A stretch of 64,000 bases of DNA from Lingula anatina (lineage: Eukaryota > Animalia > Brachiopoda), in NCBI GenBank assembly GCA_051362555.1, contig CM120649.1, positions 11,160,001 through 11,224,000 on the forward strand, read 5' to 3'. This document shows, one piece after another, positions 6,117-63,606 of this stretch. A program made the position numbers and the translations under genes. Under the pieces are notes generated by a model that searched no databases, had not been told where the DNA came from, and saw only the letters and a program-made list of their open reading frames with translations. Numbering within the stretch: the first letter of the stretch is position 1; each line of letters opens with the position of its first letter.

Positions 6117-6118
<2 letters not shown>

Positions 6119-6156: not shown

Positions 6157-6158
<2 letters not shown>

Positions 6159-12003: not shown

Positions 12004-12349
12004 TATATTCAAGTTTAGTGGTATATGTATTGAAAATGTTATTTTTTCAGGATATTTGACTGATCTTTCATAGAGCTAAGATGCATCTAAATTGTGTCCG
12101 TAATCTGCCAGTAACACCCTGAGTTTCAAGGGGTCCCTGCAGGCACCTTCCATCTCTTCCTCTATTATCAGCATACATTTACCTCTACCATTTCCAGTAA
12201 CCTCTTAAACTCAGGTTTAACCATAGGCCTCTATTTATTGCATCACATTGTATTATTATTATTATTATTATTAATAACAGGTAAACAGTTAAAGGAGATA
12301 AATGTACTCAAATACCTTTTATTCATGATTGTTTTGATTATTTTTTCAG

Positions 12350-20342: not shown

Positions 20343-21669
20343 TGGATTATAGAGAGCGCTGTTGTACAGTCGTCAGTGTGTCTGTTGAGATATCTTCCAG
20401 ATATAGCTGCTCTAGTGAAGAATATCCTGTGCCTGATGGACATTTTCATGTAATATGACATGATGATGTTTTAGATTGTCTTGAAAAAAAGTATTTGGTG
20501 GTAGTATACGTGGATGCCATCTGTTGACAATCTTAGCTATGCTCTCTGACAATGAGAAGAGAGAACATATTTTTTGTGCTTATAACTTGTGTATACGCAT
20601 CACTACAGAATTTCATGATCTTGAGCTGGTCTCTTGAATGATACCCAGTTATCAGTTTGTACTTAACTGTCTTCTTGCATGCCATTGTTTTATGTAACAA
20701 ATATTACAAAATGTAATGCAAAGCGATTTTGATTTTGCAGCAGTTTACTAAAATTATGGGTTTGTTGTGATAGGTATTATTTTTGTAAGAATTTCATGTG
20801 CATGTGGACTGTTCTGCCCAAGCAGACTTGCTGATTTGACATGCATGTAGGAAAATGGCATTTTATCAAAGTTTGACATATTTGACATATTGACTTGTGT
20901 GTTACATCAAGTTTTTTGGAGCCAGTTATTTGTAAGGGTGAGAAAAAGAGAGAAAGACTTGTGTAATGTACTCATGTAAATCATGTTAGTATATTATTTA
21001 CAAATGATGAACACGCATAATGAACAAGTTATTCCTAGCTTTTACAAACAAAATCGACTTAATTTTTAGTTTTGTATATTTTATGTTTAGTTTTATGTTA
21101 TTTTGCTATATGATATGTTATTGATATATATGAAATACAGTGTATAGTGTCCCCAGTTCATACCCACTTGTACCCTTGACACTAAAGTGTGTGTCTTGGT
21201 AGAATTTATTCTTTTTTGTAAACTTTGTCATGCACATTTAAATGTATCGCATTGTATAAGATTTACTTTGATACATAGATTTTACTGATTAATGAACCTC
21301 AGTTCTTGCGATATAGAAGCATTTCAATTTTTACCGTATGTTGACAATCAAAGTTTCTTTGAGACGGATTATCTGATATATACTGGTTCAAAACGACTTG
21401 GGAGAATTCTGATTCTGAAAGGATCTGAAATAGGTGAAAAACAGAATGATATTTCTTGTTTCGTTTTATAACAAATATTTGCATGATGTTCTGGCAGTGA
21501 GATTTGTATTAAGATGTTGGAATTGGCATGTTTTAATAGCTTGTCAGCAAAAGATCTGTTCAATTTACTTTACGTAGCCTGATGCGGATGCCAAGATGCA
21601 GATTTGTTAATGTTTTTTTAAGAAGATTGATCAGTAAAATGCTACAATTGTTGATATTTAAAAGATATT

Positions 21670-25512: not shown

Positions 25513-27593
25513 ATGAATACTGCGCTGGTCGCCAGTCTACTCTTGTTGCTGAGTATAAAGCACGTTTCAGGTTAGTTCCAAGAGGTTATGTTAAATTTTA
25601 GTATATCGTTCTAAAACTTTTACCAGAAGTTCAGATATACATGTATTCTAGGGCAAGCCCACCGAGGCGGGCAATGAGTGTTAGACCTTTACATAGCAAA
25701 CATTTAAAAAATTCCTTGAAATTTCAACAGTTTTCATTATTAGACAAGACACCTGCATGGTACGTGCATATCATAGCCTGAACAGAATTGCAACCCATTC
25801 AAAGTAGACAATGCTCTCGTCCATTTCGTTATGGAAATAGAAACCAGTTCATTTCAAATGTGACTGAAAATTATTCTCAAAGGTTCTTAAATTGAAGCAA
25901 AGGTTTGGAAATAATAAACATGGTGAAATTTCCAGGACATCTACCTACATTTATTTATTAATTTATTTATTGCTATAAGAAGGTCTAACGTGAACTCTTT
26001 TTTTTTTTGACTACCTTATGTATACATTAGTTCTTATTGCAGAATGATGATTTAAAATCATATCAATAATTTATCCATAAATGAATGAATAGGAAATGAA
26101 TGACTATATGTATGCAGTGGTGCCTCTTACAGGTGGATGTGCTTGGAACTTTGTGAACGGTATTCCGAAGTGTTTCAGATACTTTTCCCAAGAACGGTCT
26201 TTCAGTGATGCAAATTACACATGCGCTAATACCGCTGACGGGGCGACGCTAGCTATGCCAAAAACTCAAGAAATCAGCGATTTCATAGAAACTATTCTGT
26301 GAGTATTGCAATTTTTTACAACGAAATGAATAGCATCAACTGAAGGCAAAGCGACTTTCATTTTCTTAAAATTATAATCGTTAGTAGTAAAATAAGTGAT
26401 TGGTTTATTTAATAAAAATATTTATCCGCTGGATTGACATAAATGTCTAGATTCATTAGTTTGCCACTGCGACATAATATATTAAATATATAGTATAATA
26501 TGAGTAGATATAACTGTAGATGGATCATTTGTACATTAACAAGGATATCTATTACAGTGGCGGATTTAGTGGGAGTCAGGGGGTCCTGATCCTCCCTTCG
26601 GTTTGCGAAAAAAAATCAAACTAATATTCTCCTCTTGAAACAGGTATTTTGACTAACTGAAGCATAGCTCTAAACCGTACCATAAGGTACCATTTTCCTG
26701 GATCCGACCCTGCACCAGTTCCTTAGTAAATCATCTTATACGTGTGAAGGCCATGGCAAAATTTATTTAAATTTCAATAGAGCGCAGCGTGCCTTGCGTT
26801 CGTTAAAGATGTACACTGCGAAATTCAACATTATCAATACTCACAAGGAGAGTAAAAAAAAAGAAGAAATTTTGAGCTCACGACTTTCTGGATCGTAACT
26901 CTGTCAGCGGTTCTAGATATACAACCCCGCCAAGCTCTCTAGGAAGAGTTGTCAATATTCCTCAAACAGAATTGGTATACCCTTGTTGAAGGCTCGTCGC
27001 GCCGCCTACAGGAAATGATTGCAGTACGCAGTAGACACACTGTTTGACACGTGGTCCTTAACAAACACATCCTCATGCTATTTGTTTGCGAATTTGGTGA
27101 TATTTTGTGGTGTCTTATCATGGGCATTTCTTTACCTCTGTGGAAATCACAGCGAAACATTGGATTTTAGCGGGTACATGTTATACATTTGAACAAATGG
27201 TGTAAAATACGGGTATTTTCACCACTATTTTGTATTTTCTTAATATATATATATATATGTATGGTTAAGTGAAAAAAGTTGAAATTACCATGATATTGAT
27301 AATTTTTACCCTTTAAAGGTGTAACTATCATTGTTTGCTTAGGACAACCAATTATTTCTCAATTCAGACTTCAAACCATTGGTTCTCAGATGATATTTTC
27401 TCAATTCAGACCTGCAAACAGTGACAATATATGGATCGGCCTGCTTTGGCTCTCAGAATTCGGAATAAATTATAATGGGATATTCGAAGACGATTTCAAG
27501 TGGCTGGACGGCACTCCGGTCACGGAAGGGTTTCAGAACTGGGGGATAGCTAATTCTGTAAGTACCAATTAAAACAGGTCTTAGGAACTGTGT

Positions 27594-27624
<31 letters not shown>

Positions 27625-27943
27625 GGGGGGAGGGGGGGAGGTCATTTCACTTATAATGATTACATTTCAGAAGGGAACTTAACTATTGTTCTAATACCCT
27701 GTATGTCACATAATAAATGTATTTTTGATAAATTAATCTTAGGTTATCATTATACATATTGCCCTGAGGCAGGCTGTGTCCTATATCAGTCATTTCCTTT
27801 ATTTTCAGTATAATGAAAATGTACCCTGTGTAGGTGTTCGCTTACGCAAATCTTTCGGCCACAGGGTGTGGTGGGACAAAGATTGCAGCTTTAACCAGTT
27901 TTCCTATATCTGTGAAGTACCGTATACATCTTGTCCGTGTACG

Positions 27944-27992
<49 letters not shown>

Positions 27993-30900
27993 TATCACTC
28001 CTCGTAGATTCATCTCAACAACTTACAATTAATTTATTAGCAAATTTGATAGGATAATATTGAGACATAAATAAGCAACGGAATTTTTATACCCAACCAA
28101 GTTGGACTAGGTAGGTGTCTATATAGCAGGTACAGCATTGGATGAAATTCATCCAATTTATTTTGTAACAGCTAGACTGAGGAACCTCTAGTAATACAAT
28201 ATAATTTTGTTTCTGCATTCCAGGTTGTTTAAGTCCATCACAAGGGAACCGCACCACGTTTAATCCGGTCTTTTCGAGATACGATGTGGGAGATACAGTG
28301 ACCTATGCCTGTGAGTCGCCTGAAGAGGGTTTGGTAGAGGGGGACCTGGAGCGCACTTGTATGGGAGCTTTCAATTGGTCAGGATTAGAGCCTGTTTGTG
28401 GTGGCTGTCCAATCCCGGCCTCTGATACAAACTACACAACACTGGTAAGAAACCAATCGTTTATACACACCTACCCTGTTGGGTACACAGTGACATACGC
28501 ATGCGCAGATAGCCGACTAGTGCACGTGGCCGGCGACCTCACGCGCACGTGTCTCACCGACTTGACGTGGTCTGGTTTGCAACCAAGATGTGACGGATGT
28601 CTGTTTCCTCCGCATGGAAACCACTCCATTCACGATCTCATCGATAACGGAGACCCTTTTGCCGTCGGAGACATAGTCTCTTACCAGTGCCTGCCAGGTT
28701 TATTGCCAATTGATGGAGACACCATTCGCACCTGCCTTGCCGACCGAACTTGGTCCGGGACACCCTTGTCCTGTTCCGGATGCTCGCCACCCGCCAATGA
28801 TACACAGTTTCTTAGTTTATACGAACCAGTCAAAGAGGAATATCAATTAAACGAAACCATCTCTTACTCTTGTATTGGTTCTTATATTTCTATACAGGGA
28901 GAAATAACACGAACATGTGACTCTAACTTAGAATGGACCGGGAATGGTTCACTACAATGTGTCGGGTGTCCGCCCCCAGAGAATGCCACATTGGCCACGT
29001 ACAGCGCTCTTAACGTCACGTACTACGAAATCGGATACCTAGTGGAGTATACATGTCTTGATGGATTTGTTTGGGTGGAAGGGGATTTAAATCTCACGTG
29101 CATGCCTTCTCTTAACTGGGATGGAACAACACCAACATGTAAGGGATGCGATGCTCCAGAAAATGGAACCCTTGCCAAGCCATCAGTTTTGGGATCGGTT
29201 TTTGGAGTAGGTGAAACTGCTCACTATGCTTGCACTGATGGCTTCTTCCTCTTCAGTGGAGATATGAACCGCACATGCCTTGATTCCCTAACGTGGTCTG
29301 GCGTCGCCCCTGAATGCCGAGGGTGCACTTTGCCCGAAATCGGGTATCTTTCCAATTACTCTCTGAGCGAAGCCCCATATTACCCATTGGGTCAGGTCGT
29401 GAACTACACTTGTCATGATGGATTCCAGATGAAAAATGGGAGCCGCAATCGAACTTGCATAATGGCCAATGGTTTTGAAGGATCAAATTGTTCTTGTATC
29501 AATTTGTCAAATGATAATGAGAATGAATTTTGCCCCATTAACTCCACCAATCAGACCATTTGTCGCGCGGAGCGTGCAGTTTGGTCCGGAACTCCTTTAA
29601 AATGTGGCGGTTGCAAACTACTGTTCAACAGCAGTAGATTTGTCATAATGCCACAAAAGAACACATACAGATTAGGGGAGTCTGTGAATTACACCTGCAA
29701 TCCAGGACTCCGTCACACGCGTGGGGACCTGACCCGCTATTGCCAGGAAAATCTCACGTGGTCCGGGAGAACGCCGTCGTGCGTAGGGTGCAGTGCGCCA
29801 GATGATGCCGATACCAGGGCCACCTACAGTCCAGCGTTAGAACCAAGGCACATGTATAGGATAAATAAAACCATCACCTACAGCTGCGACCAAAACTTTG
29901 TTAAAGTTAATGGAAACGACTTGCGTACTTGTCAGTTTGATCTGACCTGGTCAGGACATCCAATGAGGTGTGGAGGGTGTGGCCTACCAGAGCTAGGAAC
30001 AAATTCGACGCACAGTTTCGCACAATATAATGAGACGTCACAGTTTGGTATAGGAACTGTGGTGATCTATGAGTGTCTTACGGGTCATGAAAAAATTGAC
30101 GGGGATTGGAACCGCACTTGTTTGGGGACCCTCAACTGGTCAGGAGGGGCTTTGTCTTGCTCAGGTAAGATTCCGGAATACGTGACTTAAAGCGTTTAGT
30201 GGCCAGACTACAGTCTGTTCTCTATAGCTTAGCCGTAAAAATACTTTGAGGTAAGAAATGTTTATAGCAATACTTAAATATGTTTCGTGTTTTGCTTTAT
30301 GGGTTTGATAATGACAAAAACACAGAAGAAGTAGGGTGTACAGTTTATGGAAGAAAAGTACCAAGGCAGATGAGACACGAAAACTCAACTTAAATTTGAT
30401 AGATGGATTAAAATTTAAAAAGTGTGGACGCCAAACAACAATGATGGCTTAAAACTACAATGTTCTCACGACGATATGTCCACACAAATATGTCTGACAC
30501 TGCGACACATTGCAAGCCTCAGGAATTATCATTTCTAAATGATCATAATTTACTGAAAATATTACGTTTCTTTTCAATACGATGTTAGTGTAGATATGCA
30601 TGTATTTGAAATTAACGGATACTTGACCAACTGGAATGTTCATGTGTTATCAATTTGTTGGGAACGAACAAGTGCCCTATTTTCGAACTTAAAGGCATAC
30701 CATGTTCGTTAGACTCCTATAAAATAAACAAAAAAGAATAAATACATATTTATAGACAGGATATCATAACACCATTGGCAAAATGGCAATACATAAATTT
30801 GTCTTTGAGTTTTATTTTTCTGATCGTAACGTCAACAGTGATGTACACCAGTATACCAGTAGGCCATTGCAACAATGCAGGCTAAAAATGGACTCAAAAA

Positions 30901-32265
30901 GGAGTTTACGGATCGTACTTCTGTGAACAATTTTAAATATGATATACAGCGGTACTGTGGTAATTAAAAAAAAGCTGAGCTGCTGAAACGAATTAATTTT
31001 GTTGCTAAATAATTAAAGGCCAATCTCTCATTATTTATTGCTATAGTTCCAGAATCAACAACAGGACCATCCACTAATGTGACGATTACAACTACTAGAA
31101 GTGATTCAGACTCATTATGTGACGAGCCGCCAATTATACCGCATACGAAAGGTACGTTGGTGGACAATGACATTGGCACTGCTCCTACCGAACGTGTCGC
31201 CATCTTTCGGTGCGATGTGGGCTACTGGTTTCAGGAAAATAGGATCTATGAACAGCATGTCACATGCCTTCACTGGAACACTATCTCGCCTTGTACAGGT
31301 ATATACATGGAAACCAGTTACATTTTTAACAAGTGAATAAATAAATAAAAATCAAAGAAATAAAAGCAATAAATAAAATTAAAATGTGTATGAAGATGCA
31401 AAATGTGTGCCAAATACTTAGAGATAAAATTGCTTCGAAAGGACCATTTTCAAAAGTTACATAAATCAGTTCCTTAGCAGCATTATCACCTTCGCCTCTT
31501 TCTCAGTGGCAGATAGTTTTAATACTTACTGTACTTTGCCTTACAGCGGTGCAATGCCCCCCTCCACTCCAAAGCGGTTCAGCTATTCTACTAAGACAAA
31601 CCCAAGGGCAATACGTGTTCAACTCCACGGTGGAGTACCGCTGCCCTAACGGCACCTATCTCCCTGACGGCAAGAGATCTCGGTTCTCCAGGTGTACTCA
31701 GAGAGGGGTGTGGTCGGCCTATCCCCCTGCATGTACAGGTAGGTGGACAGCAGGGGTTCCAGAGAACACAGTGGTAACCTACTGTGAGTGTATGTTAACC
31801 GGGTTTATTTTTGTTCTTGGACGTGCGTGTGTCAGTGGGTGCACACTTGTGCATGTTATATATAATATTAGAAAAAATGGAAGAATATAGAAAAAGGTGA
31901 TTTTGACTGAAGTTGTGTTTAGAGAATTTTGTGGTATATTTAATGTTTTCTTGAAGATTTGTGAATTGTATAGGTACGTTGTTGAACGTCCTTTTTTAAT
32001 TTATACATCAGCGTCTGTGCCAAGAGTTACCCGGCGACAACGAAAATTTTCCGCAATACCGAAAGAGGCGAGTCTGAGCGTCGTGGTTCCCTGTGGCACA
32101 CTTGCCATAGGACTTCTGCTGGGCATCAGTATTATTTTATTTGTATTGGACGCCCGGACGTTACTTGTGCAAATCCAAAAGGGACTACGTAACGTGCAAC
32201 GCTTCTGTGGACGTTATAAGGGTCTTCGTAGACGGCAGTCGAGTGCGTACATCAGCAGGGGATAG
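25513..32265 (+). CDS. C-type lectin + ~12 sushi/CCP domain type I membrane protein (selectin/furrowed-like), paralogue A
   Basis: Exons 25513-25570 (signal peptide MNTALVASLLLLLSIKHVSG), 26133-26298, 27410-27557 (IWIGL..FKWLDGT), 27809-27938 (WWDKDC..YICE), 28224-30164 (10 CCP), 31047/31053-31298, 31547-31738, 32012-32265 (TM VVVPCGTLAIGLLLGISIILFVL plus basic tail). Probable non-coding exon ending at ~24721. Confidence 0.9.
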
Positions 32266-33244
32266 TCAGTGGCGTACCTTTGCTCTAACGGATTCAAGGT
32301 TTTGCTAAAGGGGAGGCATTTTATGAATAGTGTATTTCCCTAGTTTCTTTCTTCTAATATGATATACAGTCGGCGAGGACATATAGGGCACAAAGATTGA
32401 ATAGACATTTGCAACTCATACGCACCTCTACACTAGGTGTAGCAGAGCCTTAGGGCAAACAGAGCTGAGAGAGTGCGCGTGCTTATTGTGCCACCCCTTG
32501 ACGGTCGCTTTTACCTGGGCATGAAAGATGTGTTCATCTTTTATAGCGACTAGGAAGTGTCTACGTGGGCATGGTGCATGTGAGGACAGCAAAATATAAA
32601 GTGGGCGCAATAATTCTACCAGGTCGGTTTCTAGTCAATGTTCATTAAAGTATCATTGAAACTATATAGTTTTTAATTTTCTGGCAATTGTGCTGCCATC
32701 ATGTGGTCAAAATTGAAAGCTTGTATACTGTGATGTCAGTTTCTCACAAATTGTCATTTTCAAGATTTGACTGAAGCTGTGTGCTTCTTAGATTTTCTGA
32801 ATAACCACATCAAATGGAAGGTATATAATGGGGTAAGGGTGAACTGCTCTAGTGGATGCCCTTGATCAAAGGGCGTTTTTGGTCTGAGCATACAAGATTA
32901 CCGTTTCAAGTTTACTGCAAAAGCAAAACCGGCAAAGTAAAATGCATGCAACGAATTTATTTCATTAAAAAATTAGACTTGTTAATGTTTAATCACACTG
33001 TATTGCAATGTAACAATGAATGTTAAAATAAACCAATATCACCCCTACACTAAAGTTATATATCGTAATGTGTGTGTAACGAGCAAAATGGGTGTTTGTT
33101 CTTAATTCGCTCATCAAATCAATGAATTTGTTCTGATATTTTGAAACTACAACATCTCGTATCGTGTAAATATTAGCCTTTTTTACCCAGGTTAAACAGA
33201 TTGTTTAAAAGAATTATTTCTTTATAGCAATGTCTTTTCTTAAA

Positions 33245-40144: not shown

Positions 40145-43100
40145 ATGAATGTCGTGCTTATCACCACTATACTGAATACATGTATAGTGCTGCTGCTGAA
40201 TACATGTGTAGTGCACGTTTCAGGTAAGTCCTAAGCAGTTTTATGTTTCGTTCTAAGACTTCTTTAAGATATTCAGATCGAAAGAGGGAATCGAGGGAAA
40301 GCACATCGAGTCGCGTATTGGGTGCTGGACGTTTAAAAAGAAAACATTTTACATGTCTGGACATTTCAACAGTTGTTTCTTAAGACAAGTTACATGTATT
40401 TGAATGGTGCGTGGGTGTCATTTCCAGAACCATTTACAGAGTTACAATCCATGAACATATTTGAGCTCTATATGTTTCTGGTGTTTGAACATTCTCGTAA
40501 TTGAGAAAGGGGCTATTTCATTTCAAATGTGAGTGTACAAGTCATGCATTCAGAACTCAAGAACGGGTTTATGGATTTTAATTAATTTTGAATTAGATAT
40601 TCCCAAGCTGTTCATACATGTGCAGGAAGTGTTGTTGAAGTTTCAACGGTTTGATCTATTTATTTAGCGTGCAAGGAGCATTTACTTCTCTGATTGGCCA
40701 CCCACCTTACACAGTTTATTATTTTTTTCTTATTGCAATAAAGCAGAATCAGGAATTTTATTCATATCACACTTTGGTTTATAAGTTAATTGATATAAAC
40801 TAATTGATATCGTTTTATTTTCAGGCGGGTGTGCTTGGAAATTTGTGGACAATATTCCGAAGTGTTTCAAGTACTTCTCTCAAAACATGAAATATACTGA
40901 TGCACGTTACGCATGCTCTAATCTTGCCGAGGGGGCTACGCTAGCTATGCCAAAAACTCAAGAAGTCAGTGATTTTATAGAAAGTATCTTGTGAGTAATA
41001 CTTTTTTCTTTGCAACGAGAATGTATTTCATGAACACAATATAAAACTACATTCATTCCTTTCTATTAATCACTGCTGGTCTCAAAATATATGATTGGTG
41101 TATTGATATCTCTAGTGGACTGATTATTTCTAAATTCAGACTTCAAAACACGTTGGTTCTCAGATGATTATTTCTGAATTCAGACCTCAAAACAGTGATG
41201 ATATCTGGATCGGTCTGCAGTGGCTTCAAGAGTACGGGTTAAATAATAATGGGATATTCGAAGACGATTTCAAGTGGGTGGACGGCACTTCCGTCACGGA
41301 GGGCTTCCAAAACTGGGGGGAAGCTGATTCCGTAAGTAGCTATAGACTAAAGCTATAGACTAAAATACGTCCGCGTTTAGCGTTGATCAATTATCCAAAT
41401 CCGAAACCGGGCCTTATAATATTTCAATAAAATAAAACGATAGTTAATCTTACTTACATAATGCCTTGTTCTGTTCCCTTGCATGTATTAACTACTTTAT
41501 TTCTTTTCAGTATCGCCAACATTTATCCTGTGTAGGTGTTCGCTTGCACAAAGTTTCGGGCCGGAGGGTGTGGTGGGACAATGACTGTAGCAAGACGTAC
41601 TCCTATGTCTGTGAAGTACCTTATACATCTTGTCCCTGTGCGTATAAAAATAAACTAATAATAACACTTAAAATCTTGAAATTACTTCTCGTAGATTTAT
41701 TGCAAAAAGTAAAAATTAATTTATGAGCTAATTTTGATAGGATTATATTAAAACATACATGTAAATAAGAGATGAGATTGCATTATACCCAACCAAATAG
41801 GATTGGGAAGGTGCCCCTGTAAAAGTTACAAAATTGGACGAAATTCGTCCCGTTTAATTTGTAGCAGCTACAGATGCCTGAGGAGAACCCTGCTGGAGGG
41901 CACTGAAATGAAAAGTTCTGTATTCCAGGTTGTTTACCTCCACAACCAGGCAACCGTGCCACTTTCAATCAGTTCTCCCCAAGATACAATATGGGGACTA
42001 CAGTCGCCTATGCCTGTGAATCGCCTGAAGAGGGGCTGGTAGAGGGTGACCTAGAGCGCACGTGTATGGGGGCATTCAATTGGTCAGGATTAGAGCCTGT
42101 TTGTGGTGGCTGTCCAATCCCTATCTCTGACAGAAACTACACCACTCTAGTAAGAGACCAGTCGTTTGTATACACCTACCCTGTCGGCCACACAGTGACA
42201 TACGAATGCGCAAACAGCCGACTAGTGCACGTGGCCGGCGACCTCACGCGCACGTGTCTCACCGACTTGACGTGGTCTGGTTTGCAGCCTCGATGTGGCG
42301 GCTGTCCCTTCCCTCCGCATGGAAACCAATCCATTCACGACCTCATCGATAACGGCGACCCTTTTGCCGTTGGAGACACCGTCTCTTATCAGTGCCTGCC
42401 AGGTCTATTGCCAATTGATGGAGACACCATTCGCACCTGCCTAGCCGACAGGACTTGGTCCGGGACACTGCTGTCTTGTTCCGGATGCTCGCCACCCGCC
42501 AATGATACACAATCTCTTAGTTTATACGAACCAGTCAAAGAGGAATATCAATTAAATGAAACCATCTCTTACTCTTGTATTGGTTCTTATGTTCCTATAC
42601 AGGGAGAAATAACACGAACATGTGGCTCTAACTTAGAATGGACCGGAAATGGTTCACTACAATGTGCCGGGTGTCCGCCCCCAGAGAATGCCACATTGGC
42701 CACGTACAGCGCCCTGAACGTCACGTACTACAAAATCGGATACGTAGTGGAGTACACGTGTCTTGATGGGTTTGTTTGGGTGGAAGGGGATTTAAATCTC
42801 ACGTGCATGCCTTCTCTTAACTGGGATGGAACAACGCCAACATGTAAGGGGTGCGATGCTCCAGAAAATGGAACCCTTGCCAAGCCATCACTTTTGGGAT
42901 CGGTTTTCGGAGTAGGTGAAACTGCTCACTATGCTTGCACTGATGGCTTCTTCCTCTTCAGTGGAGATATGAACCGCACATGCCTTGATTCCCTAACGTG
43001 GTCTGGCGTCGCCCCTGAATGCCGAGGGTGCACCTTGCCCGAAATCGGGTATCTTTCCATTTACTCTCTGAGCGAAGGCCCATATTACCCATTGGGTCAG

Positions 43101-46100
43101 GTCGTCAAGTACACTTGTCAAGAAGGATTCCTGTCGAAAAATGGGAGCCGCAATCGAACTTGCATAATGGGCAGTGATTTTGTGGGACCAAATTGCTCTT
43201 GCACCAATATGTCAAATGATAATGAGAATGAATTTTGCCCCATTGTCTCCACCAATCAGACCATTCACTGTGCGGAGCGTGCAGTTTGGTCTGAAACCCC
43301 TCTACAATGTGGCGGTTGCAAACCACCGTTCAACAAAAGAAGGACCGTCATCATGCCACAAAAGAACACATACAGAATAGGGGAGTCTGTAAATTACACC
43401 TGCAAAGCAGGGTTTCAGCACACACTTGGAGACCTGACCCGCTATTGCCAGGAAAGTCTCACGTGGTCCGGGAGAACGCCGACGTGCGCAGGGTGCAGTG
43501 CGCCAGATGATGCCGATACCAGGGCCACCTACAGTCCAGCGTTAGAACCAATGCACATGTATAGTGTAAATGAGACCATCACGTACAGCTGCGACCAAAA
43601 CTTTGTTAAAGTGAATGGAAGCGACATGCGCACTTGTCAGTTTGATCTAACCTGGTCAGGCTATCCAATGAGGTGTGGTGGATGTGGCCTACCAGAGCTA
43701 GGAGCTAATTCGACACACAGTTTCGCACATTACAATGTGACGTCAGTGTTTGAAATAGGAACTGTGGTAACTTATGAGTGTCTTAAGGGGCACGGTAAAA
43801 TTGGTGGAGATTGGAACCGCACCTGTCTATGGACTCTCGACTGGTCAGGGGACCCTTTGGTTTGCTCAGGTAAGATTCTGGTGTTCCTTTATCTGAGCAC
43901 CCGTGACCATTTTATCTTAACGCCAATTTAATGACATCACTGACTACTTCACATTCCTAGGCCTATCAGTGATTTTTCTTAAAAGCTTCAGTTCAGATTT
44001 AATAGTTTTTAAGCCAAAATGATACCGATTTCAATGATGCATTGTAATAATGATAGCATTACTGAAAAAGTACTTTTTTTCAATAAAATGTCTATGATGA
44101 ACATTTTATTTTGTTGGCTGTAAACCTTCATCAATACACATGTACATGTATGATAGGTTTGTTTGAAAGCTTTGAATTAAGATTGAAATAAGAAAACATC
44201 AGTCATTATATAAAATACACATATCTGCAAATGATATGAGGTTATAAGATCAACTGAAATGGTTCTGTGTTATCTATTTGTCATGAAGAAACTGGTACCG
44301 AATCCTTTAAATTAAAGGCATGCGATATTCAATAGGCCTCCATATAACAAAAGAATGAAATGAAAAATTAGATATTTATAGACAGAATATCATCTCTAGA
44401 TGATCTAAAGATCATCTCTATAGACAAAATAACGATGTAAAACCTGTTTTGAGCTTTGTATTTTAAAGGTACACACGAACTGAGCATCGGTGGAGCGTGG
44501 ATTCCCAATAACACATGTCAACCACTGCTACTAGATTCTTATATGACTCAAATATATTCGACATGCCAAGGGATAAACTGAATAGATAACTCGATCAGCC
44601 ATAAAAGAACTTTAGACTGCTCCTTTCTTTAAATTTTTGGTTGTAAATTTAACCTACTTTCGTGACCTACTTTCCTGCCCCATTGACATACAGCTTAGAA
44701 TGCCAGCAGAAAAATCCGTTCAAACATCATTTTCGGGTAAAATTAAACAATGCCTTTTGGTTATTCTCTTAGTTATACTACGTGAAACTATATGCTGGCA
44801 TTTGGTTGGTTTTTGTGACAAAAAATTGACTTTGTATGCATCTTTAAATTGCTATCGTCAAGAGATATATCCATCAGTCTCTTTGCCATGGCAACAGTGC
44901 AGGCTCTAATAATAATAATAATAATAATAATAAAAATAATAATATAGAAACTTAAAACTCGCAAAGGGGTTTTCCGATCGTATTTTTTTTATTGATTTTG
45001 GATATGATATACCGCGGTACTTAGGTAATGAAGGAAATGAACTACAGTTTCCAGGAAAGGGAATTAATATTGTTCCTACATTAGGGCCTAACTCCCCTTA
45101 TTTGTGAGCCTTTGATATAGTACTAATCATGGTTTATTGCTATAATTCCAGAATCAACGACAGGACCATCCACTGATGTGACGTTTACATTTACTTCGAG
45201 TGCCTCAGTCTCATTATGTGACGAACCGCCAATTATACCGCATACGAAAGGTACCTTGGTGGACAGTGACATTGGAACTGCTCCTACCGACCGGGTCGCC
45301 ATCTTTCGGTGCGATGTGGGCTTCTGGTTTCAGGAAAATAGGACCTATGAACGGCACGTCATGTGCAGTCACTGGCACACTGTCTCGCCTTGCACAGGTA
45401 CACACATGGAAATCGGTTATATTTTCAACAAATGGATGAAAAAAAAAACTTAAAATAATAGCATTTTTATCATTTTAACAATTTCCTCGTTGCATGAAAT
45501 ATGAAGGAATTTTAATTTCGTACAAAATACTTAGATATGAAATCGCTTGGGAAGGAGCATTTTTAAATAAATAAATACATAAATTAGTTTCCTCTCATAA
45601 TAATCAGTTTCATTTCTTTATTGGAGACAGTTTTTGTTTACATTTTCACTTTGTCCTACAGCGGTACAATGCCCCCCTCCACCTGAAAGCGGTTCAGCTA
45701 TTCTACTAAGACAAACCCAAGATCAATACGAGTTCAACTCCACGGTGGAGTACCGCTGTCCTAACGGCACCTATCTCCCTGACGGCAAGAGATCTCGGTT
45801 CTCAAGGTGTACTCAGAGAGGGGTGTGGTCGGCCTTCCCTCCTACATGTACAGGTAGGTGGACAGCAGGGAATCCAGGGAGCACAGTGGCAACGTGCCCT
45901 CCTTCACCAGGAGATACATCTATACGTCTCCACCTCCGACCCTGCCAAAAAAAAAAACAAAACAAAAAACAGTTAATTAGTTACTATAGAGAAACAAAAT
46001 GAATACTAGCAATTACATGAACATTGCAAGTATGCGATATTTGTGGAGTAGAAGAACAAACACATGCAGGAACACAAAAGCAAATGTACCCAATAAACAT

Positions 46101-46828
46101 ACATTCAGGATCTTATCATTTTTCATAATATTTATTATCCTGGATGTACTGTATGTTTACTGGGTACGTGTGCGTTTTTTTTTCCCCGCTCTTGATTGTG
46201 CTAGCTCTTGCTTGCGTTTGTTTATGTGTTCACATTATATTTAAACGAAATGGTATATAGGGAAAAGATGCCCTTACCTATTTTTTCTTATAGGACTCTA
46301 TAGAAGTCCTACATGACTGTATAGCAATTCTATCGGACCTTCTGTAAGATTCTTGTCTAAGAATTATGCTCCAAAGGGCCCTATAGGATATTGAGCTAAT
46401 TTCCTTTCAGTCATCTGATATTAAGTAAGGGACCTTGTAAGGATTTTGGTAAAGGTGATTTTAGTTTAAGACATGCTATTAAATTTTGCAGTGGATTTCA
46501 TGTTTCATGAAAATTCATAACCTATTTGAGTGCGTTGTCTCGTGTCTCACACCAGTTTGTCACTTGCACTTCAGCCTCCATTCCCAGCGTCACCCAACGT
46601 CAACGAAAATTTTTCGCCACACCGAAAGAGGCGAGTCTGAGCGTCGTGGTTCCCTGTAGCACGTTTGCCATAGGACTCCTGCTTGGCATCAGTATTACTA
46701 TATTTGTACTGGACGCCCGGACGTTACTTGAGCAAACTCAAAAAGGACTACGTAACGTAAAACGCTTCTGTCGACGCTTTAAGGGACCACGTAGACGGCG
46801 GTCGAGTACGTACGTCAGTAGGGGATAG
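40145..46828 (+). CDS. C-type lectin + ~12 sushi/CCP domain type I membrane protein, paralogue B
   Basis: Exons 40145-40223 (signal peptide), 40825-40990, 41184-41331, 41511-41637, 41929-43869 (10 CCP), 45152-45397, 45662-45853, 46575-46828 (TM plus tail). Same intron phases as paralogue A; ORF intact. Confidence 0.9.
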
Positions 46829-47010
46829 TCAGTGGCGCGCTTAATGTGTATCCACTAACGGATCGGATAAAGGATTTTGCTAGAGAAGAGAGGTTTCAAA
46901 AATTAATATGTCCCTCGTTTTTGGTGTAATAATATGATATGACAAGGACAGTTCACGGGGGTATGTAAGGGACAGGAATTGATAAAAAGAGCTGTTTTGT
47001 CTGAGAGTAC

Positions 47011-55293: not shown

Positions 55294-56960
55294 ATGGAGA
55301 ACATCGAGTATCATCGTTTGGCCGCCAGTGAGGATGATGGTTCTGTACCAAAAGAGACCAAGATTAGGTGGGTTTGACCTGTGACTTTCATACAAGTTTC
55401 TTTGTGTTGAGTACAATGCAATTGGTGATTGGTGAGTGTTCACTCTGCCTTTTTGCATGTCTGACGTTGATTATTATTTGATTTTTAGTGCATTGCTTAT
55501 ATATACCATTTATCATGATTACTATAATTTCTATAATTTACAGCCACAGTAGCATAATTACACATTGTGATAATCTAAGTCTGTCTTACTTACCAGAGCT
55601 TTTGCTATGCGCTTTTCTTATTACCTAAATAATTGGGAAGCAATGGTGCTGTTTTACTTCAGACTCACCACTGAGGGATAACTCCTTATTCTAATGTGAC
55701 AGTCAAACTCAAAACTGGACAGAGTTTTTTTTTATACTGGGGGGTAGTTTTGATTTTTCTTTTTTCCCAGTGAATATCTCAGTCTAGTCTGTCACTGCTT
55801 TAAAGCTTGCATATTGCTATAATTTTATTTTTAGTCTTCATAGATAAGTGCTGTCTGTATGTATAACAGCTTTAGGTGGCTTTTTATAATTAATGTGTTA
55901 TTTATTCCAATACCAGTACATTTTAAAAATAACTATAACCCAAGATAGATTATATACATGCACATCGCATTTAATATAATTACAAGAAAGATGCAATGAT
56001 ATTCTGCAACTTTATGTAGTCCATGGATTGGCAGAAAAAGTAAATGGAAAAAGTGCTTACGGAAAATAAGGTAAGAGTGTATGATGCAAAGTTAACATTA
56101 TTTCACCACTAATTAATCCATCATTTTTAACCAATTGGTAGATGTTTAACAAGTCCATCAGATCACAATTTACTTTGATCTCTGCTGTTTATCGTCTTCA
56201 GTTTTCACATCAAATAATCTTGTCAACACTTCTCTGCTTGTTGACTTTGTTTTTCCCTCTGTGTTCACGGATTTGGCTGCACATGACGGGCCTTGCACCA
56301 CCTGTGTTACCTGTGTATTCTGTGGAATCCCAGGATTGACATAGGGCTGATATCCACATTTAATTAACTTTTTCCTTCTGGATACTGCAGAGGTCCCTCT
56401 TGAGCTGTCTTCCTTTATTTTTTTTGTGACCAGTTAAATTTTTTTGTTTTTCTGAGAATACTGCTGGTTTAAGTTTACAATTTGCACAGCTGCTTTTGCT
56501 AAGGGGCTGGTTTCATCTTATGTGTTTAAATTTATCCTTGTGTCTTTCATTGTTTTGGTAGAGTAGTTTATTTGTTGTTTTTGTTTATTTGAGTGTATTG
56601 TTACAGTGGTATTTCTTTTCTTTCTTTGTTTGTTATTTAATTATGTATTTAAATTTGAACATGTTTTAGAGTTTCGTCTGAAAATAATTTATCACAGCTA
56701 TTTTGTGATCCCAGTTCTTGTGACTGTTCTATTCTTGTTGAGTTGTAGAATAAGTATCCTTGCTGTGTTGTAGTATCACAAACAAAAGCAATTGAAATGA
56801 ATTTTAAAGAATGAGTAGTATTATCTTGTCATTTCAACTTCACGATTTTGATAATTCTCTACATGAGGAGCCAAGTCACGAAAGAGAACAATGATTAATT
56901 ATTTATACAGGGACATATTATTCTCCCTGATGTTGTTTCACCCAAAGGCTCATCTGGGGC

Positions 56961-57010
<50 letters not shown>

Positions 57011-57269
57011 CACTCTATATAAAATCAAGGATACGAATAAATTAGACTTATCTCTCCATTTTATTTAAAAAATGCCCTTTGGCCGTTTCGTATTTTGTTT
57101 TGTTTCCGCCCCTGACGAGGCCTCAGGGCCGAAACGGCCAAAGGGCATTTTTAAATAAAATGGAGAGATAAGTCTTATTTATTCGTATCCTTGATTTTAT
57201 ATACTAGCTCCCCACGGGCCGCCCCCATGGGTGGAGCACTTTTTCATGGTGTATTGACTTTATTCTCCG

Positions 57270-57356
<87 letters not shown>

Positions 57357-60300
57357 AAATCAAAGTTTCAAATTTCATGATAAGTGTCTTCAGGCAAAAC
57401 GGGTGTTACGGGAAATAAAGATTTTCTTATTCTATTATTATTATATGGTATATATATTTTTATTTAATTAATTGAATGCATCTTTAAAGTCTAAATACCA
57501 GTACACTCATAATTTGATGTGACTAGGTCAAGATTAAAATCACTGTTACGTCAGCACTGCCCCCTCCCCCCCCCCCCCCCACCCCACCCAATACCCACTG
57601 CCAGTTAAACTGAAGCCAGACCAGTTTGCAAATTTTGTGAATATTTTCAGCCACTGGCCTTGTATTTGCTTTGGACTAGTTGATTTCTATCATTGGTGGC
57701 CACAGGCTGAAATCTCAGTAGACTTTTAAGTTAAAATCTGTACAGACTGATCTCTCTAATGAGTGATCTCACCATAAGAGGCTAGGATGGTCCTGGTAAG
57801 GAAATGCGCAAACAAAAATACTTACATTTTGCATGTTAAATTTTGGTATGGTGGAATATTAAAATTTAGGTATATTAACTAAAATACAATCATAATTTTT
57901 TTTCTTATTTCCTTTTTAGCTATTACAGAAGGAGTAAGCTGAATTCTTTCATGACATTGCTGTGTGTGGTCACTTTCTGCTGTTGCTGTCTTGTTGCTCT
58001 TGTCTTGGCCATCGTCTTCAGTGGAAAGTCCAAGAGTGCTACCTATGATGAGACACCATGGTTCCGGCCACAATATCACTACACCCCAAAGAAAAACTGG
58101 ATGAATGACCCAAATGGACTGATTTATCACAATGGGGAATATGAGCTGTACTTTCAGTACAATCCTTATGGTAATTGAAGATTATTGATATCCTTCTCAT
58201 TTAAGATTTTTTATTGTATTTCGTGTTTTTGAAGATAATAACTTTTCATATGATTAAAGATCATTGTATTTCATGCAGTTATAAACACTTATATACACAC
58301 TCACACACACACACACACACACACATTATGCTGTGAATACATATTTAGTGCAATGCAAAAAGAAGCCTATCATTTATTTGTGGAGCAAAGGAAGGGGAAA
58401 AAGTCATTGGACCCCCACACACACACACACACACACACCACACAAACATCTCTACCAGCAGATTCCCAGATATTTAATATCATAAATACACAGCTTGTAA
58501 TTTCAGGTATAACCTCCACATGAGTTTATCCATATTGCTTTAGCAGTATACACTCATTTTTCTTATAATGTCTCAATAACAGAGAACCCATGTTGCTGTA
58601 TTGTTTCACACTGGCATTGTCCTAGAACACTAGTCAACTTTATAAAATGGTTAACATATATATTCAAATTTTATGAATTTTTAAAAATTTTACACCTTTA
58701 TTTGTAATAAAAGGAAGTCACTGGAGTCACATGAGTTGGGGTCATGCTAAGAGTAAAGACATGGTTTGTTATTCTAGGTAGTCACTGGGGTCACATGAGT
58801 TGGGGTCATGCTAAGAGTAAAGACATGGTTTGTTATTCTAGGTAGTCACTGGGGTCACATGAGTTGGGGTCATGCTAAGAGTAAAGACATGGTTTGTTAT
58901 TCTAGGTAGTCACTGGGGTCACGTGAGTTGGGGTCATGCTAAGAGTAAAAACATGGTTTGTTATTCTAGGTAGTCACTGGGGTCATATGAGTTGGGGCCA
59001 TGCTAAGAGTAAAGACATGGTTTGTTATTCTAGGTAGTCACTGGGGTCACATGAGTTGGGGCCATGCTAAGAGTAAAGACATGGTTTGTTATTCTAGGTA
59101 GTCACTGGGGTCACATGAGTTGAAGCCATGCTAAGAGTAAAGACATGGTTTGTTATTCTAGGTAGTCACTGGGGTCACATGAGTTGGGGTCATGCTAAGA
59201 GTAAAGACATGGTTTGTTATTCTAGGTAGTCACTGGGGTCACATGAGTTGGGGTCATGCTAAGAGTAAAGACATGGTTTGTTATTCTAGGTAGTCACTGG
59301 GGTCACATGAGTTGGGGTCATGCTAAGAGTAAAGACATGGTTTGTTATTCTAGGTATATATAGTCACTGGGGTCACATGAGTTGGGGTCATGCTAAGAGT
59401 AAAGACATGGTTTGTTATTCTAGGTAGTCACTGGGGTCACATGACTTGAAGCCATGCTAAGAGTAAAGACATGGTTTGTTATTCTAGGTAGTCACTGGGG
59501 TCACATGAGTTGGGGTCATGCTAAGAGTAAAGACATGGTTTGTTATTCTAGGTAGTCACTGGGGTCACATGAGTTTGGGTCATGCTAAGAGAAAACACAT
59601 GGTTTGTTATTCTAGGTAGTCACTGGGGTCACATGAGTTGGGGCCATGCTAAGAGTAAAGACATGGTTTGTTATTCTAGGTAGTCACTGGGGTCACATGA
59701 GTTGAAGCCATGCTAAGAGTAAAGACATGGTTTGTTATTCTAGGTAGTCACTGGGGTCACATGAGTTGGGGTCATGCTAAGAGTAAAGACATGGTTTGTT
59801 ATTCTAGGTAGTCACTGGGGTTACATGAGTTGGGGCCATGCTTAGAGTAAAGACATGGTTTGTTATTCTAGGTAGTCACTGGGGTCACATGAGTTGGGGC
59901 CATGCTAAGAGTAAAGACATGGCTTGTTATTCAAGGTAGTCACTGGGGTCACATGAGTTGGGGTAATGCTTAGAGTAAAGACATGGCTTGTTATTCTAGG
60001 TAGTCACTGGGGTCACATGAGTTGGGGTCATGCTAAGAGTAAAGACATGGTTTGCTTTTCTAGGTAGTCACTGGGGTAACATGAGTTGGGGCCATGCTAA
60101 GAGTAAAAACATGGTTTGTTATTCTAGGTAGTCACTGGGGTCACATGAGTTGAAGCCATGCTAAGAGTAAAGGCATGGTTTGCTTTTCTAGGTAGTCACT
60201 GGGGTCACATGAGTTGGGGCCATGCTATGAGTAAAAACATGGTTTGTTATTCTAGGTAGTCACTGGGGTCACATGAGTTGAAGCCATGCTAAGAGTAAAG

Positions 60301-62035
60301 ACATGGTTTGTTATTCTAGGTAGTCACTGGGGTCACATGAGTTGGGGTAATGCTTAGAGTAAAGACATGGCTTGTTATTCTAGGTAGTCACTGGGGTCAC
60401 ATGAGTTGGGGTCATGCTAAGAGTAAAGACATGGTTTGCTTTTCTAGGTAGTCACTAGGGTAACATGAGTTGGGGCCATGCTAAGAGTAAAAACATGGTT
60501 TGTTATTCTAGGTAGTCACTGGGGTCACATGAGTTGAAGCCATGCTAAGAGTAAAGGCATGGTTTGCTTTTCTAGGTAGTCACTGGGGTCACATGAGTTG
60601 GGGCCATGCTATGAGTAAAAACATGGTTTGTTATTCTAGGTAGTCACTGGGGTCACATGAGTTGAAGCCATGCTAAGAGTAAAGACATGGTTTGTTATTC
60701 TAGGTAGTCACTGGGGTCACATGAGTTGGGGTCATGCTAAGAGTAAAGACATGGTTTGTTATTCTAGGTAGTCACTGGGGTCACATGACTTGAAGCCATG
60801 CTAAGAGTAAAGACAATGTTTGTTATTCTAGGTAGTCACTGGGGTCACATGAGTTGGGGTAATGCTTAGAGTAAAGACATGGCTTGTTATTCTAGGTAGT
60901 CACTGGGGTCACATGAGTTGGGGTCATGCTAAGAGTAAAGACATGGTTTGCTTTTCTAGGTAGTCACTGGGGTAACATGAGTTGGGGCCATGCTAAGAGT
61001 AAAAACATGGTTTGTTATTCTAGGTAGTCACTGGGGTCACATGAGTTGAAGCCATGCTAAGAGTAAAGGCATGGTTTGCTTTTCTAGGTAGTCACTGGGG
61101 TCACATGAGTTGGGGCCATGCTATGAGTAAAAACATGGTTTGTTATTCTAGGTAGTCACTGGGGTCACATGAGTTGAAGCCATGCTAAGAGTAAAGACAT
61201 GGTTTGTTATTCTAGGTAGTCACTGGGGTCACATGAGTTGGGGTCATGCTAAGAGTAAAGACATGGTTTGTTATTCTAGGTAGTCACTGGGGTCACATGA
61301 GTTGGGGCCATGCTAAGAGTAAAGACATGGTTTGTTATTCTAGGTAGTCACTGGGGTCACATGAGTTGGGGTCATGCTAAGAATAAAGACATGGTTTGTT
61401 ATTCCTAGGTAGTCACTGGGGTCACATGAGTTGGGGTCATGCTAAGAGTAAAGACATGGTTTGTTATTCTAGGTAGTCACTGGGGTCACATGACTTGAAG
61501 CCATGCTAAGAGTAAAGACATGGTTTGTTATTCTAGGTAGTCACTGGGGTCACATGAGTTGGGGTCATGCTAAGAGTAAAGACATGGTTTGTTATTCTAG
61601 GTAGTCACTGGGGTCACATGAGTTTGGGTCATGCTAAGAGAAAACACATGGTTTGTTATTCTAGGTAGTCACTGGGGTCACATGAGTTGGGGTCATGCTA
61701 AGAGTAAAGACATGGTTTGTTATTCTAGGTAGTCACTGGGGTCACGTGAGTTGGGGTCATGCTAAGAGTAAAGACATGGTTTGTTATTCTAGGTAGTCAC
61801 TGGGGTCACATGAGTTGGGGCCATGCTAAGAGTAAAGACATGGTGCACTGGGAACAGCAGCCAGTGGCGCTGATGGAGGCAGACGGAGTCATGATCTTTT
61901 CTGGCAGCGCCGTTGTTGACACAAACAATACTTCTGGGTTTGGAAACAAAACACATCCACCTCTTGTAGCCTTGTATACCGGATTTGTAGAGTAAGTTTT
62001 TTTCTTTTCCTTTTTTCTTTTCTTTCTTTCCTCTT

Positions 62036-62066
<31 letters not shown>

Positions 62067-63606
62067 AAGACACCCCTTTATTTGTATTCTGGATTGGTAA
62101 AGGTACAAGTTGGACCAGTTTCCAGGCTAAAATTTGATTGTGAAACAAGCTCTGCTAGCTTACAAAGCTTTATTATTTCCTGTACCCTTTACCCTTCCAC
62201 TTGTTCTCATTTTAACTCTTATTTTTTATTTGTCATTTTATAATTATTTTAAAATGGATCATTTTATTTTCACATCAGACATTCATCTTTGAATAGTTTA
62301 TGTATCAATTTTAAGAGCTCAGACAGAAACCAATTTCTGATGTATTTTTTATGGTGTAATTCTTTGATTTTTTAAATGGGAAAATGTAATAATCCTGACA
62401 GAAAATCCATTTTGATCAATTATATCGAAATACAACATTGTCCAGTGACCTCACATCAAATAGATGAAGTAAAAATCCAAGTTTCTTGGATGTGTTAAAC
62501 CTAGGGTACATTTACCAAGCAGTGTTTGTACAGTGCAAGTATACGGCCCATAAATATAAGCTTCATAAATTAGTGTGATTATTATCACAGGTCAGATAAA
62601 ATCCAAGATCAGCGAGTAGCTTACAGCAATGACAATGGCATGAGTTGGGTCAACTATGAAAATAACCCAGTTTTAGACCGCCACAGTGAGAATTTTAGGG
62701 ATCCAAAGGCAAGTATGTGTACATACATAGGTATAGGTGTGTGTGTGTGTGTGTGTGTGTAGAGGATGTGCATTTTCTGCACATGCATTCATGGGTGTGT
62801 AAATGTGCAAGTATACATTTGTGTGTTTATGTGTGTAAAGTTGTTATCTAGTTTGCATTTTCTCAAAAGATTGATTACCATTCATCATATATCTTGATAT
62901 ATGATGAATGGTAATCATATATCTTGATATATAAAATGCACATGCAATTAGTTTAACATGATATCTTTGTATGCAGGGCCTTTCTCACGAAAATGTGAAT
63001 TTCATTTGCTAAGCTTAGAAAGCTAAAATCAAAGAGGCAACTATGCAAAGTCAGCTTTGCAGTATTGGTCTGAAGGTTTACAAAAATGATTGACCAGCAG
63101 TAAATGAATTGGACATTCATCAACAGACTTTTATCACCTTTGACAATAAAAAAATAAAAAAATAAAAAAATAAAAATCTTAGTCAAGGCAATCAAAATTT
63201 GCTCAAGGGGCTTTGTTAAGAGGCCAACAAAGAAAAAGGTCATTTGCCTTTTTGATTCTTTATGAAAGTGCAACTTAGTTGACTACTTCTTACCAGACTA
63301 CAATTATAGCTAAAAAACTGACTTAAGAACTTTTGTTAAACAGGGTGCTGGTATAAACGTGCTAATAATCGAACAAAACTAATACCTCTTTTTTTTTCCT
63401 TCACCAGGTGTTTTGGCACCCTCCCACTAAATCATGGTGCATGTTAGCTGTTCTGGCCCAGAAACACACCATCCTTTTTTACACCTCAGTAAACCTGATA
63501 GATTGGACCCTGACGTCAGAGTTCATCCCATCTCCCAGCACTGGCGTCAGCATTGAGGGAAACTGGGAATGTCCTGATGTGTTCCCGCTGAAGGTGATAG
63601 GGGCAG
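55294..63606 (+). CDS. Glycoside hydrolase family 32 (levanase/exo-inulinase/beta-fructofuranosidase-like), type II membrane-anchored, 3'-incomplete
   Basis: Exons 55294-55367 and 56020-56070 (inferred from phase-2 continuity), 57920-58170 (TM; [18 protein letters not shown]), 61793-61991 ([13 protein letters not shown]; [16 protein letters not shown]), 62591-62708 (AYSNDNG..FRDPK, GC donor), 63408-63606 (WECPD). All three catalytic motifs (NDPNG, RDP, EC) are intact. Confidence 0.93.
56965..57341 (+). mobile_element. Penelope-like element end with inverted duplication, inserted in (TA)n
   Basis: ~75-bp inverted arms 57016-57090 / 57130-57203 bracketing a hammerhead core; (TA)n tracts on both sides. 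Confidence 0.6.
57107..57146 (+). ncRNA. Minimal type I hammerhead-ribozyme-like motif
   Basis: gccc-CTGACGA-GGCC-TCAG-GGCC-GAAAC-GGCC-aaagggc: intact CUGANGA and GAAA boxes and a 4-bp stem II; the cleavage triplet is atypical (GCC). Confidence 0.55.
58713..61843 (+). repeat. 64-bp minisatellite (~48 copies plus the functional one) built from the splice acceptor and first 50 nt of a GH32 exon
   Basis: Unit GTAGTCACTGGGGTCACATGAGTTGGGGTCATGCTAAGAGTAAAGACATG-gtttgttattctag, period 64 (58777, 58841...); the last unit runs into GTGCACTGG (VHW) of the coding exon. Confidence 0.97.

What the first reader, a model, noticed from the sequence alone, without database searches (positions are those of the whole stretch)
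58713..61991. ~48 tandem decoy copies of an intron/exon junction in front of a GH32 catalytic-domain exon
Seen: each 64-bp unit is a 14-nt acceptor tail (gtttgttattctag) plus the first 50 coding nt of the exon ([17 protein letters not shown]). Every unit offers essentially the same 3' splice site in the same phase, but splicing to an upstream unit reads ..SKDMVCYSR and then usually TAG. Only the last acceptor (61792) gives enzyme. Each unit also holds a donor-like ATG|GTTTGT, and the acceptor is an AG|GT junction like a recursive-splicing ratchet point. Known: junction-spanning minisatellites ('mirages') were described in amphioxus introns, and tandem duplication of AGGT is a proposed route of intron gain. 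Inference: the spliceosome must bypass ~48 near-identical acceptors, either by exon definition from the donor at 61992 or stepwise/recursively. Copy number could then tune productive versus NMD transcripts or yield a short membrane-anchored truncated product.
Basis: partly seen in the sequence, partly recalled or inferred. Interest (0 to 1): 0.85.

Follow-up and report, generated by a model that had tools for sequence, protein, structure and literature searches.

The report
Splice-acceptor "mirage" minisatellite in brachiopod GH32
A 64-base piece spanning the end of an intron and the start of the next exon of a sugar-cleaving enzyme gene in the lamp shell Lingula is repeated 49 times in a row, yet the messenger RNA sampled joins at the last, real copy; it is a large example of a repeat type known from lancelets as a "mirage" and is likely tolerated clutter rather than a regulator.

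Summary
The array is real: 48.8 copies of 64 bp at 58712-61844, each a 14-nt acceptor tail plus 50 exon bases. All 48 upstream copies would lead to a stop. The gene is Lingula anatina LOC106151601, a GH32 enzyme with a predicted membrane anchor. RNA reads from 4 of 9 listed runs gave 73 junction reads from donor 58170 laid at the last acceptor (44/13/0/16). None was listed at the preceding copy, where a simulation puts 82% of decoy junctions. So decoy use in the RNA sampled is likely under about 10%. Array-derived reads carry the assembly's unit variants, which argues against an assembly artefact; copy number is untested. The 'ratchet' donor is weak (4 of 9). This fits the amphioxus 'mirage' minisatellites (PMC3087553) and mirrors the human F7 repeat (PMC1557585). 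The scan has noted at least eight such arrays in other invertebrate genomes. NMD-masked decoy use and recursive splicing remain untested. New member of a known kind; modest interest.

The parts
55294..55367 (+). GH32 gene coding exon 1 (start codon)
   Evidence: tblastn of P0001; GT-AG join
56020..56070 (+). GH32 gene coding exon 2
57920..58170 (+). coding exon 3: predicted transmembrane segment and the NDPNG motif; its donor feeds the array intron
   Evidence: Pfam PF00251 E 1.1e-11; hydropathy peak at residues 55-75; its 3' end appears as loose ends on 73 reads
58171..61792 (+). intron of 3622 nt, GT-AG; first 540 nt unique, the rest is the array
58700..58777 (+). copy 1, the 5' edge copy: A-rich acceptor tail (4 of 13 bases differ from the unit tail, against 2 of 50 in its exon part); no reads listed with its two diagnostic letters
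   Evidence: (Fisher p 0.014, post hoc)
58712..61844 (+). 64-bp minisatellite, 48.8 copies, 22 distinct units, with higher-order blocks (identical non-consensus units at lags 6, 8, 9, 14, 32)
61779..61792 (+). functional 3' splice site (last tail), with array-derived sequence upstream of it
   Evidence: step in read depth and 73 loose ends at 61792
61793..61991 (+). coding exon 4 (199 nt), donor GTAAGT at 61992
   Evidence: PF00251 E 6.6e-16; 100% identical to P0001; reads
62591..62708 (+). coding exon 5 (RDP motif), followed by a GC-AG intron
63408..63606 (+). coding exon 6 (ECP motif); the gene continues beyond the window

Best explanation
The array is a tandem amplification of the gene's own intron/exon-4 junction, and the RNA sampled splices to the last copy, likely because that copy alone is paired with the rest of the exon and its strong downstream donor, which would leave the 48 upstream copies as tolerated, likely neutral intron sequence. 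Shown: the anatomy, expression in 3 of 4 runs, the junction at 61793, and stops or substitutions in many decoys. Inferred: origin by a 64-bp duplication at a GT microhomology, growth by slippage or unequal crossing-over (the higher-order blocks), and acceptor choice by exon definition. The acceptor-choice step is not fully explained: copy 48 would give a 263-nt exon against 199 nt, so length alone hardly excludes it, and a nearest-site rule or enhancers in the unique part of exon 4 must be assumed.
For:: loose ends matching exon 3 at 61792 in 44, 13, 0 and 16 reads (X1, X3, X4, X7); none listed at 61728; depth across 61713-61742 is flat (31.9/32.8/32.6; 23/23/23; 6.6/7/7), so at most about one read starts at copy 48; 824 of 1008 simulated decoy-junction reads are placed at copy 48, 163 at 61793; a 10% decoy share would give 6.5 reads there (P of 1 or fewer 0.011); indiscriminate use about 290. 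One search lists no joint or deletion skipping the tail. Decoys are not under coding constraint: 16 of 48 have a stop inside the 50 exon bases. RefSeq isoforms X1 and X2 are both 582 aa and differ by 3 substitutions. Precedent: mirages leave splicing normal (PMC3087553; PMC3902484), and in human F7 only the repeat copy at the real exon edge is used (PMC1557585).
Against: A 5% decoy share is not excluded (P 0.18). Three X1 reads leave the last unit with a tail sequence at 61844; the simulation shows pure array reads do this (115 of 419 sampled), but if all three and one more were decoys the 95% upper bound would be 21% (4 of 41). Array-derived reads are present and lie on the sense side in the stranded runs, at 3.8%, 8.7% and 2.1% of the junction count per base if these animals have 48 units; no other intron was measured as a control. 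All decoy products would be NMD targets, so steady-state RNA understates them. The simulation used my aligner, not the tool's. Only 4 of 9 runs were laid, 6-25% of each was read, X4 gave 2 reads, and tissues are unknown. Copy 1's weak tail may reflect selection, which would mean decoys are not cost-free.
Confidence: 0.76

Rival explanations
1. Decoy acceptors are used at an appreciable rate, the products stop after about 147 aa or earlier and are destroyed by NMD, so array length tunes enzyme output.
For: All 48 decoys give a stop; 48 of 49 starts keep AG; sense array-derived RNA exists; a 5% steady-state share is not excluded.
Against: No decoy junction listed among 73 junction reads. AG retention is weak evidence: 21 of 64 unit positions vary, so two unvaried positions are unremarkable. 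Amphioxus mirages gave no aberrant mRNA.
Confidence: 0.11
2. The intron is removed stepwise: exon 3 joins a decoy acceptor, the AG|GT junction rebuilds a donor, and splicing is repeated until the last acceptor.
For: Units 2-49 mostly show AG|GT. Poly(A) RNA detects recursive intermediates poorly (PMC6110457 passages), so their absence is weak evidence.
Against: The rebuilt donor matches 4 of 9. The same GT is the second and third base of a glycine codon at the real acceptor, where it is not used. Known recursive sites have strong motifs, lie in very long introns and nearly all cut segments over 1 kb; here units are 64 nt and the intron is 3.6 kb. No intermediate was listed.
Confidence: 0.05
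3. The array exists but its length in this assembly is inflated, or is private to this haplotype.
For: No DNA run or long read was examined; reads only show that three or more units exist.
Against: 11 of the 13 distinct letters listed in reads over the array part match letters of assembly units, including variants found in only 2-4 of 48 units. The window has no N. 22 distinct units with nested block structure are hard to get by mis-assembly. Array-type reads also occur in X7, whose reads are only 90-99% alike.
Confidence: 0.05
4. The locus is an intermediate of intron gain: a decoy's 50-nt exon part is being recruited as a new exon (model of Ebner et al. 2010, Fig. 7).
For: Each unit has an acceptor and a donor-like ATG|GTTTGT 50 nt later; the model is published.
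Against: No AG lies at the matching position after base 50 of the real exon, so recruitment cannot restore the frame now; no such joints were listed; the unique part of the intron shows no convincing likeness to the flanking exons.
Confidence: 0.03

Closest known systems
Amphioxus 'mirage' minisatellites: globin BflGb6 and BflGb9, Adh3, troponin C, PGBD5 (PMC3087553 and PMC3902484, passages read; Canestro et al. 2002 not read, known only through those papers)
   Same: Tandem copies of an intron/exon boundary. BflGb6 has the same layout (3' end of intron plus 5' part of the next exon). Many units keep splice signals, splicing stays normal, and edge copies escape homogenisation.
   Different: Brachiopod rather than cephalochordate. 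49 copies against 3-6 for BflGb6; unit 64 bp against 150-160 bp (Adh3 units 10-72 bp). Length polymorphism and somatic instability were shown in amphioxus and are untested here.
Human F7 intron 7 VNTR (PMC1557585; abstract and Discussion read)
   Same: A minisatellite spanning a splice junction gives several identical pseudo-sites; only the copy at the real exon edge is used.
   Different: It is a donor array (37 bp, five to nine sites) and was dissected experimentally; here it is an acceptor array with 48 decoys and the mechanism is inferred.
Recursive splicing ratchet points (PMC6110457, passages read)
   Same: AG|GT junctions inside an intron.
   Different: Ratchet points have strong juxtaposed motifs, are conserved, and lie in very long introns with segments over 1 kb; here the donor half is weak, units are 64 nt and no intermediate was seen.
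GH32 beta-fructosidases / levanase-like enzymes (Pfam PF00251, PF08244)
   Same: Host gene: both Pfam domains and the NDPNG, RDP and ECP motifs (their catalytic role is recalled).
   Different: Predicted type II membrane anchor; below the curated cut-offs of TIGR01322 and NF041092; substrate untested.

Membership tests
Mirage minisatellite | Head-to-tail repeat whose unit spans an exon-intron boundary of the host gene | tested here: met
Mirage minisatellite | Many units keep splice signals | tested here: met
   48 of 49 unit starts follow AG
Mirage minisatellite | Normal splicing of the mRNA is preserved | tested here: met
   73 junction reads at the last acceptor, none listed at copy 48; steady-state RNA only
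Mirage minisatellite | Concerted evolution inside the array, edge copy excluded | tested here: met
   93% matches, higher-order blocks, divergent copy 1
Mirage minisatellite | Length polymorphism or somatic instability | not testable with these tools
   no DNA run listed (asked for RNA), no genome held; two unit letters in reads are absent from the assembly, which shows sequence variation only
Recursive splicing ratchet point | AG|GT junction | tested here: met
   but the GT is also part of the exon's glycine codon
Recursive splicing ratchet point | Strong regenerated 5' splice site | tested here: not met
   4 of 9 consensus matches against 6-8 of 9 for donors of exons 2-6 (consensus recalled, no Lingula matrix)
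Recursive splicing ratchet point | Very long intron, segments over 1 kb | tested here: not met
   intron 3622 nt, units 64 nt
Recursive splicing ratchet point | Intermediates, saw-tooth coverage or lariats in nascent RNA | tested here: inconclusive
   none listed in mostly poly(A) runs; such data detect intermediates poorly
GH32 | PF00251 and PF08244 domains with the three motifs | tested here: met
GH32 | Fructoside hydrolase activity | not testable with these tools
   needs an enzyme assay

The most novel reading that the evidence does not exclude
The array is a heritable expression dial and a mutational reservoir. Decoy acceptors capture part of the splicing, their stop-bearing products are cleared by NMD and so are nearly invisible in poly(A) RNA, and array length sets the output of a bacterial-type fructan-degrading enzyme. 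The 5' edge copy was weakened by selection, and gene conversion moves variants between decoys and the real exon: position 29 is C in 23 of 48 decoys and in the window's exon, but T in 22 of 25 X7 reads.
Probability: 0.1. Interest if true: 0.65.

Novelty: new member of a known kind. Interest (0 to 1): 0.27.

Why it matters
It extends mirages to brachiopods (my literature searches, listed none there) and adds read-level evidence that one acceptor is picked out of 49 near-identical ones, which a simple first-AG scanning view does not predict. The locus is a ready natural test of 3' splice-site choice, the acceptor-side mirror of the F7 experiment. The phenomenon itself is published and this scan has met it repeatedly, with arrays up to about 247 copies by unverified notes, so a specialist would find it a neat example and not a surprise.

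Tried and rejected
Genome-wide scan for junction-spanning repeats: not possible, no genome is held; the scan's notes for this genome are empty. The look-up of sequencing runs: no RNA holder listed; nine raw-read runs were offered by species label. Reads could be laid on one 300-base stretch only, so no control intron, exon 3 or copy 1 region was measured directly. X4 gave 2 reads and is uninformative. Idea that the whole intron arose by exon duplication: the best match between the unique intron part and exon 3 is a 15-nt low-complexity T/G stretch (score 12; 0 of 200 mononucleotide shuffles reached it, a weak null), judged chance; matches to the unit (5 of 200) and exon 4 (25 of 200) are no better. 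Conserved AG as a sign of selection: rejected, since only 21 of 64 positions vary at all (three indel units left out). Tree for horizontal transfer: 62 rows, quick method only, P0001 on a long unresolved branch, so no donor is claimed. Literature searches: mirage terms, Lingula with GH32 or transfer terms, recursive splicing; none listed a paper on this locus. Supplements of the papers were not opened; the species list of PMC11311677 there could bear on whether Lingula's GH32 was already counted.

Full report
Observation. Tandem Repeats Finder reports one 64-bp array of 48.8 copies at 58712-61844, 93% matches, score 5468. Splitting it gives 49 exon-start copies and 22 distinct unit sequences. 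Each unit is the first 50 bases of the exon at 61793 followed by the 14-base acceptor tail. The two bases after position 50 are GT in both the exon and the tail, a microhomology that likely marks the original duplication joint (inference). Identical non-consensus units recur at lags 6, 8, 9, 14 and 32, so blocks of units were themselves duplicated. The window holds no N.

Host gene. Four exons tested each hit Pfam PF00251. The exon-4 peptide is 100% identical to P0001, Lingula anatina LOC106151601 isoform X1, 582 aa. Six coding exons lie in the window (55294-55367, 56020-56070, 57920-58170, 61793-61991, 62591-62708, 63408-63606). Four introns are GT-AG and one is GC-AG; the joined frame is open for 297 aa and differs from P0001 at 4 positions, so the window is likely another haplotype than RefSeq's. 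A hydrophobic segment at residues 55-75 predicts a type II membrane anchor, and the NDPNG, RDP and ECP motifs are at 104, 228 and 285. The array fills most of the 3622-nt third coding intron.

What decoys would give. Splicing donor 58170 to any of the 48 upstream copies ends in a stop. 16 of 48 stop inside the 50 exon-derived bases, so decoys are free of coding constraint. 48 of 49 starts follow AG. Copy 1, the only one with unique intron upstream, has an A-rich tail: 4 of 13 bases differ from the unit tail against 2 of 50 in its exon part (Fisher p 0.014, noticed after the fact). Without an outgroup I cannot say whether this site decayed or the unit tail improved and spread.

RNA test. No indexed RNA holder was listed, but nine raw-read runs with the same species label were offered. 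Four of the nine were laid on 61693-61992, which holds copy 48, the last acceptor and exon 4; 6-25% of each run was read. Reads laid: 122, 63, 2 and 54. Loose ends matching the 3' end of exon 3 lie at 61792 in 44, 13, 0 and 16 reads. None is listed at 61728, and depth is flat across that point in all three informative runs, so about one read at most starts there. In a simulation with my own local aligner, 824 of 1008 decoy-junction reads land at copy 48, 163 at 61793 and 21 elsewhere, while 21 of 21 productive reads land at 61792. A 10% decoy share predicts 6.5 reads at copy 48 (P of 1 or fewer 0.011), 5% predicts 3.1 (P 0.18) and indiscriminate use about 290. No joint or deletion that skips the 14-nt tail was listed, and no letters diagnostic of copy 1; the listing threshold is 3 reads from 2 starts. 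Against this reading: three X1 reads continue into a tail after 61844. Pure array reads do the same in simulation (115 of 419), but counting them as decoys gives an upper bound of 21%.

Array-derived RNA. Depth over the array part is about 36, 25, 0 and 7, collapsed from all copies. In X1 and X3 it lies on the same strand side as the exon reads, which points to unspliced transcript and not DNA. Spread over 48 units it equals 3.8%, 8.7% and 2.1% of the junction count. No other intron was measured, so I cannot say whether this is raised. These reads show joints going back 128 bases, and 11 of the 13 distinct letters listed over the array part exist in assembly units. The array and several of its rare variants therefore exist in RNA data apart from the assembly; its length was not tested. 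X7, whose reads are only 90-99% alike, also has array-type reads, and its true exon has T at 61821 in 22 of 25 reads, the other state of a site that is C in 23 of 48 decoys. Exchange between decoys and exon is one possible reading; recurrent mutation or old polymorphism are others.

Mechanism. The likely rule is that the acceptor nearest the complete exon and its GTAAGT donor wins (inferred). Acceptor-to-donor distances for the last five copies are 455, 391, 327, 263 and 199 nt, so length alone does not clearly exclude copy 48. In human F7 the mirror case was dissected: pseudo-donors are functional but only the copy at the exon edge is used (PMC1557585, abstract and Discussion). The recursive reading fares poorly: the rebuilt donor matches 4 of 9 positions of a recalled consensus and the internal ATG|GT site 5 of 9, against 6-8 for the donors of exons 2-6. 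Fly recursive sites have strong motifs, very long introns and segments over 1 kb, though poly(A) data detect their intermediates poorly (PMC6110457, passages).

Comparison. Ebner et al. 2010 describe amphioxus mirages with the same layout in BflGb6, normal splicing by RT-PCR, concerted evolution and exclusion of cluster edges (PMC3087553, passages). PGBD5, Adh and troponin C cases are summarised in PMC3902484 (one passage). Four of five mirage features were met here and length instability could not be tested. The scan's notes list eight similar arrays in other invertebrate genomes; I did not check them, and they lowered my estimate of novelty. Searches listed no brachiopod case.

Side finding. 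The 119 best non-self hits of P0001 are 41-56% identical, and those with a source name are bacterial or metagenomic; only 7997 candidates were scored. A 2024 survey of animal GH32 genes names nine phyla and not Brachiopoda (PMC11311677, passages; supplements not opened). A quick tree leaves P0001 on a long, unresolved branch. A bacterial origin is plausible but not shown; if true, the intron that carries the array was gained after transfer.

Verdict. It is a new, large member of a known kind; the neutral reading gets 0.76 and interest is 0.27.

Noticed in passing
window 55294-63606 (+), gene continues beyond 64000: The host GH32 gene may be a horizontal acquisition: named top hits are bacterial or metagenomic, Brachiopoda is not among the nine phyla in PMC11311677, and it has a predicted N-terminal membrane anchor. 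The tree was unresolved.
   Followed up: partly
window 62709-63407: GC-AG intron in the GH32 gene, inferred from the frame and the match to P0001; not checked in reads.
   Followed up: partly
window 61821: A synonymous C/T site varies both among decoys (23 of 48 C) and between true-exon alleles (X7: T in 22 of 25 reads), a hint of gene conversion between array and exon.
   Followed up: partly
window 58700-58713: The 5' edge copy's acceptor tail is A-rich and weaker than all others; direction of change unknown.
   Followed up: partly
window 57016-57203: Inverted repeat with 56-nt arms, 98% complementary, between two (AT)n tracts in intron 2 of the gene; looks like a MITE-type element (label is my inference).
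   Followed up: no
window 27300-32270 and 41130-46830 (+): Two tandem paralogous genes, each with one very long frame of 661 or 674 aa holding 9-10 Sushi repeats; the upstream exons look C-type-lectin-like by eye, but the one tested gave no Pfam hit.
   Followed up: partly
window about 2000-20500 (+): Multi-exon gene with a WAP domain (E 8e-10) and a weak Ig hit; anosmin-like by recall, not tested.
   Followed up: partly
window 8051-8623 and 8848-9065: A 190-aa open frame with no Pfam hit next to a 72-bp x 3 repeat; no exon link was seen by eye.
   Followed up: no
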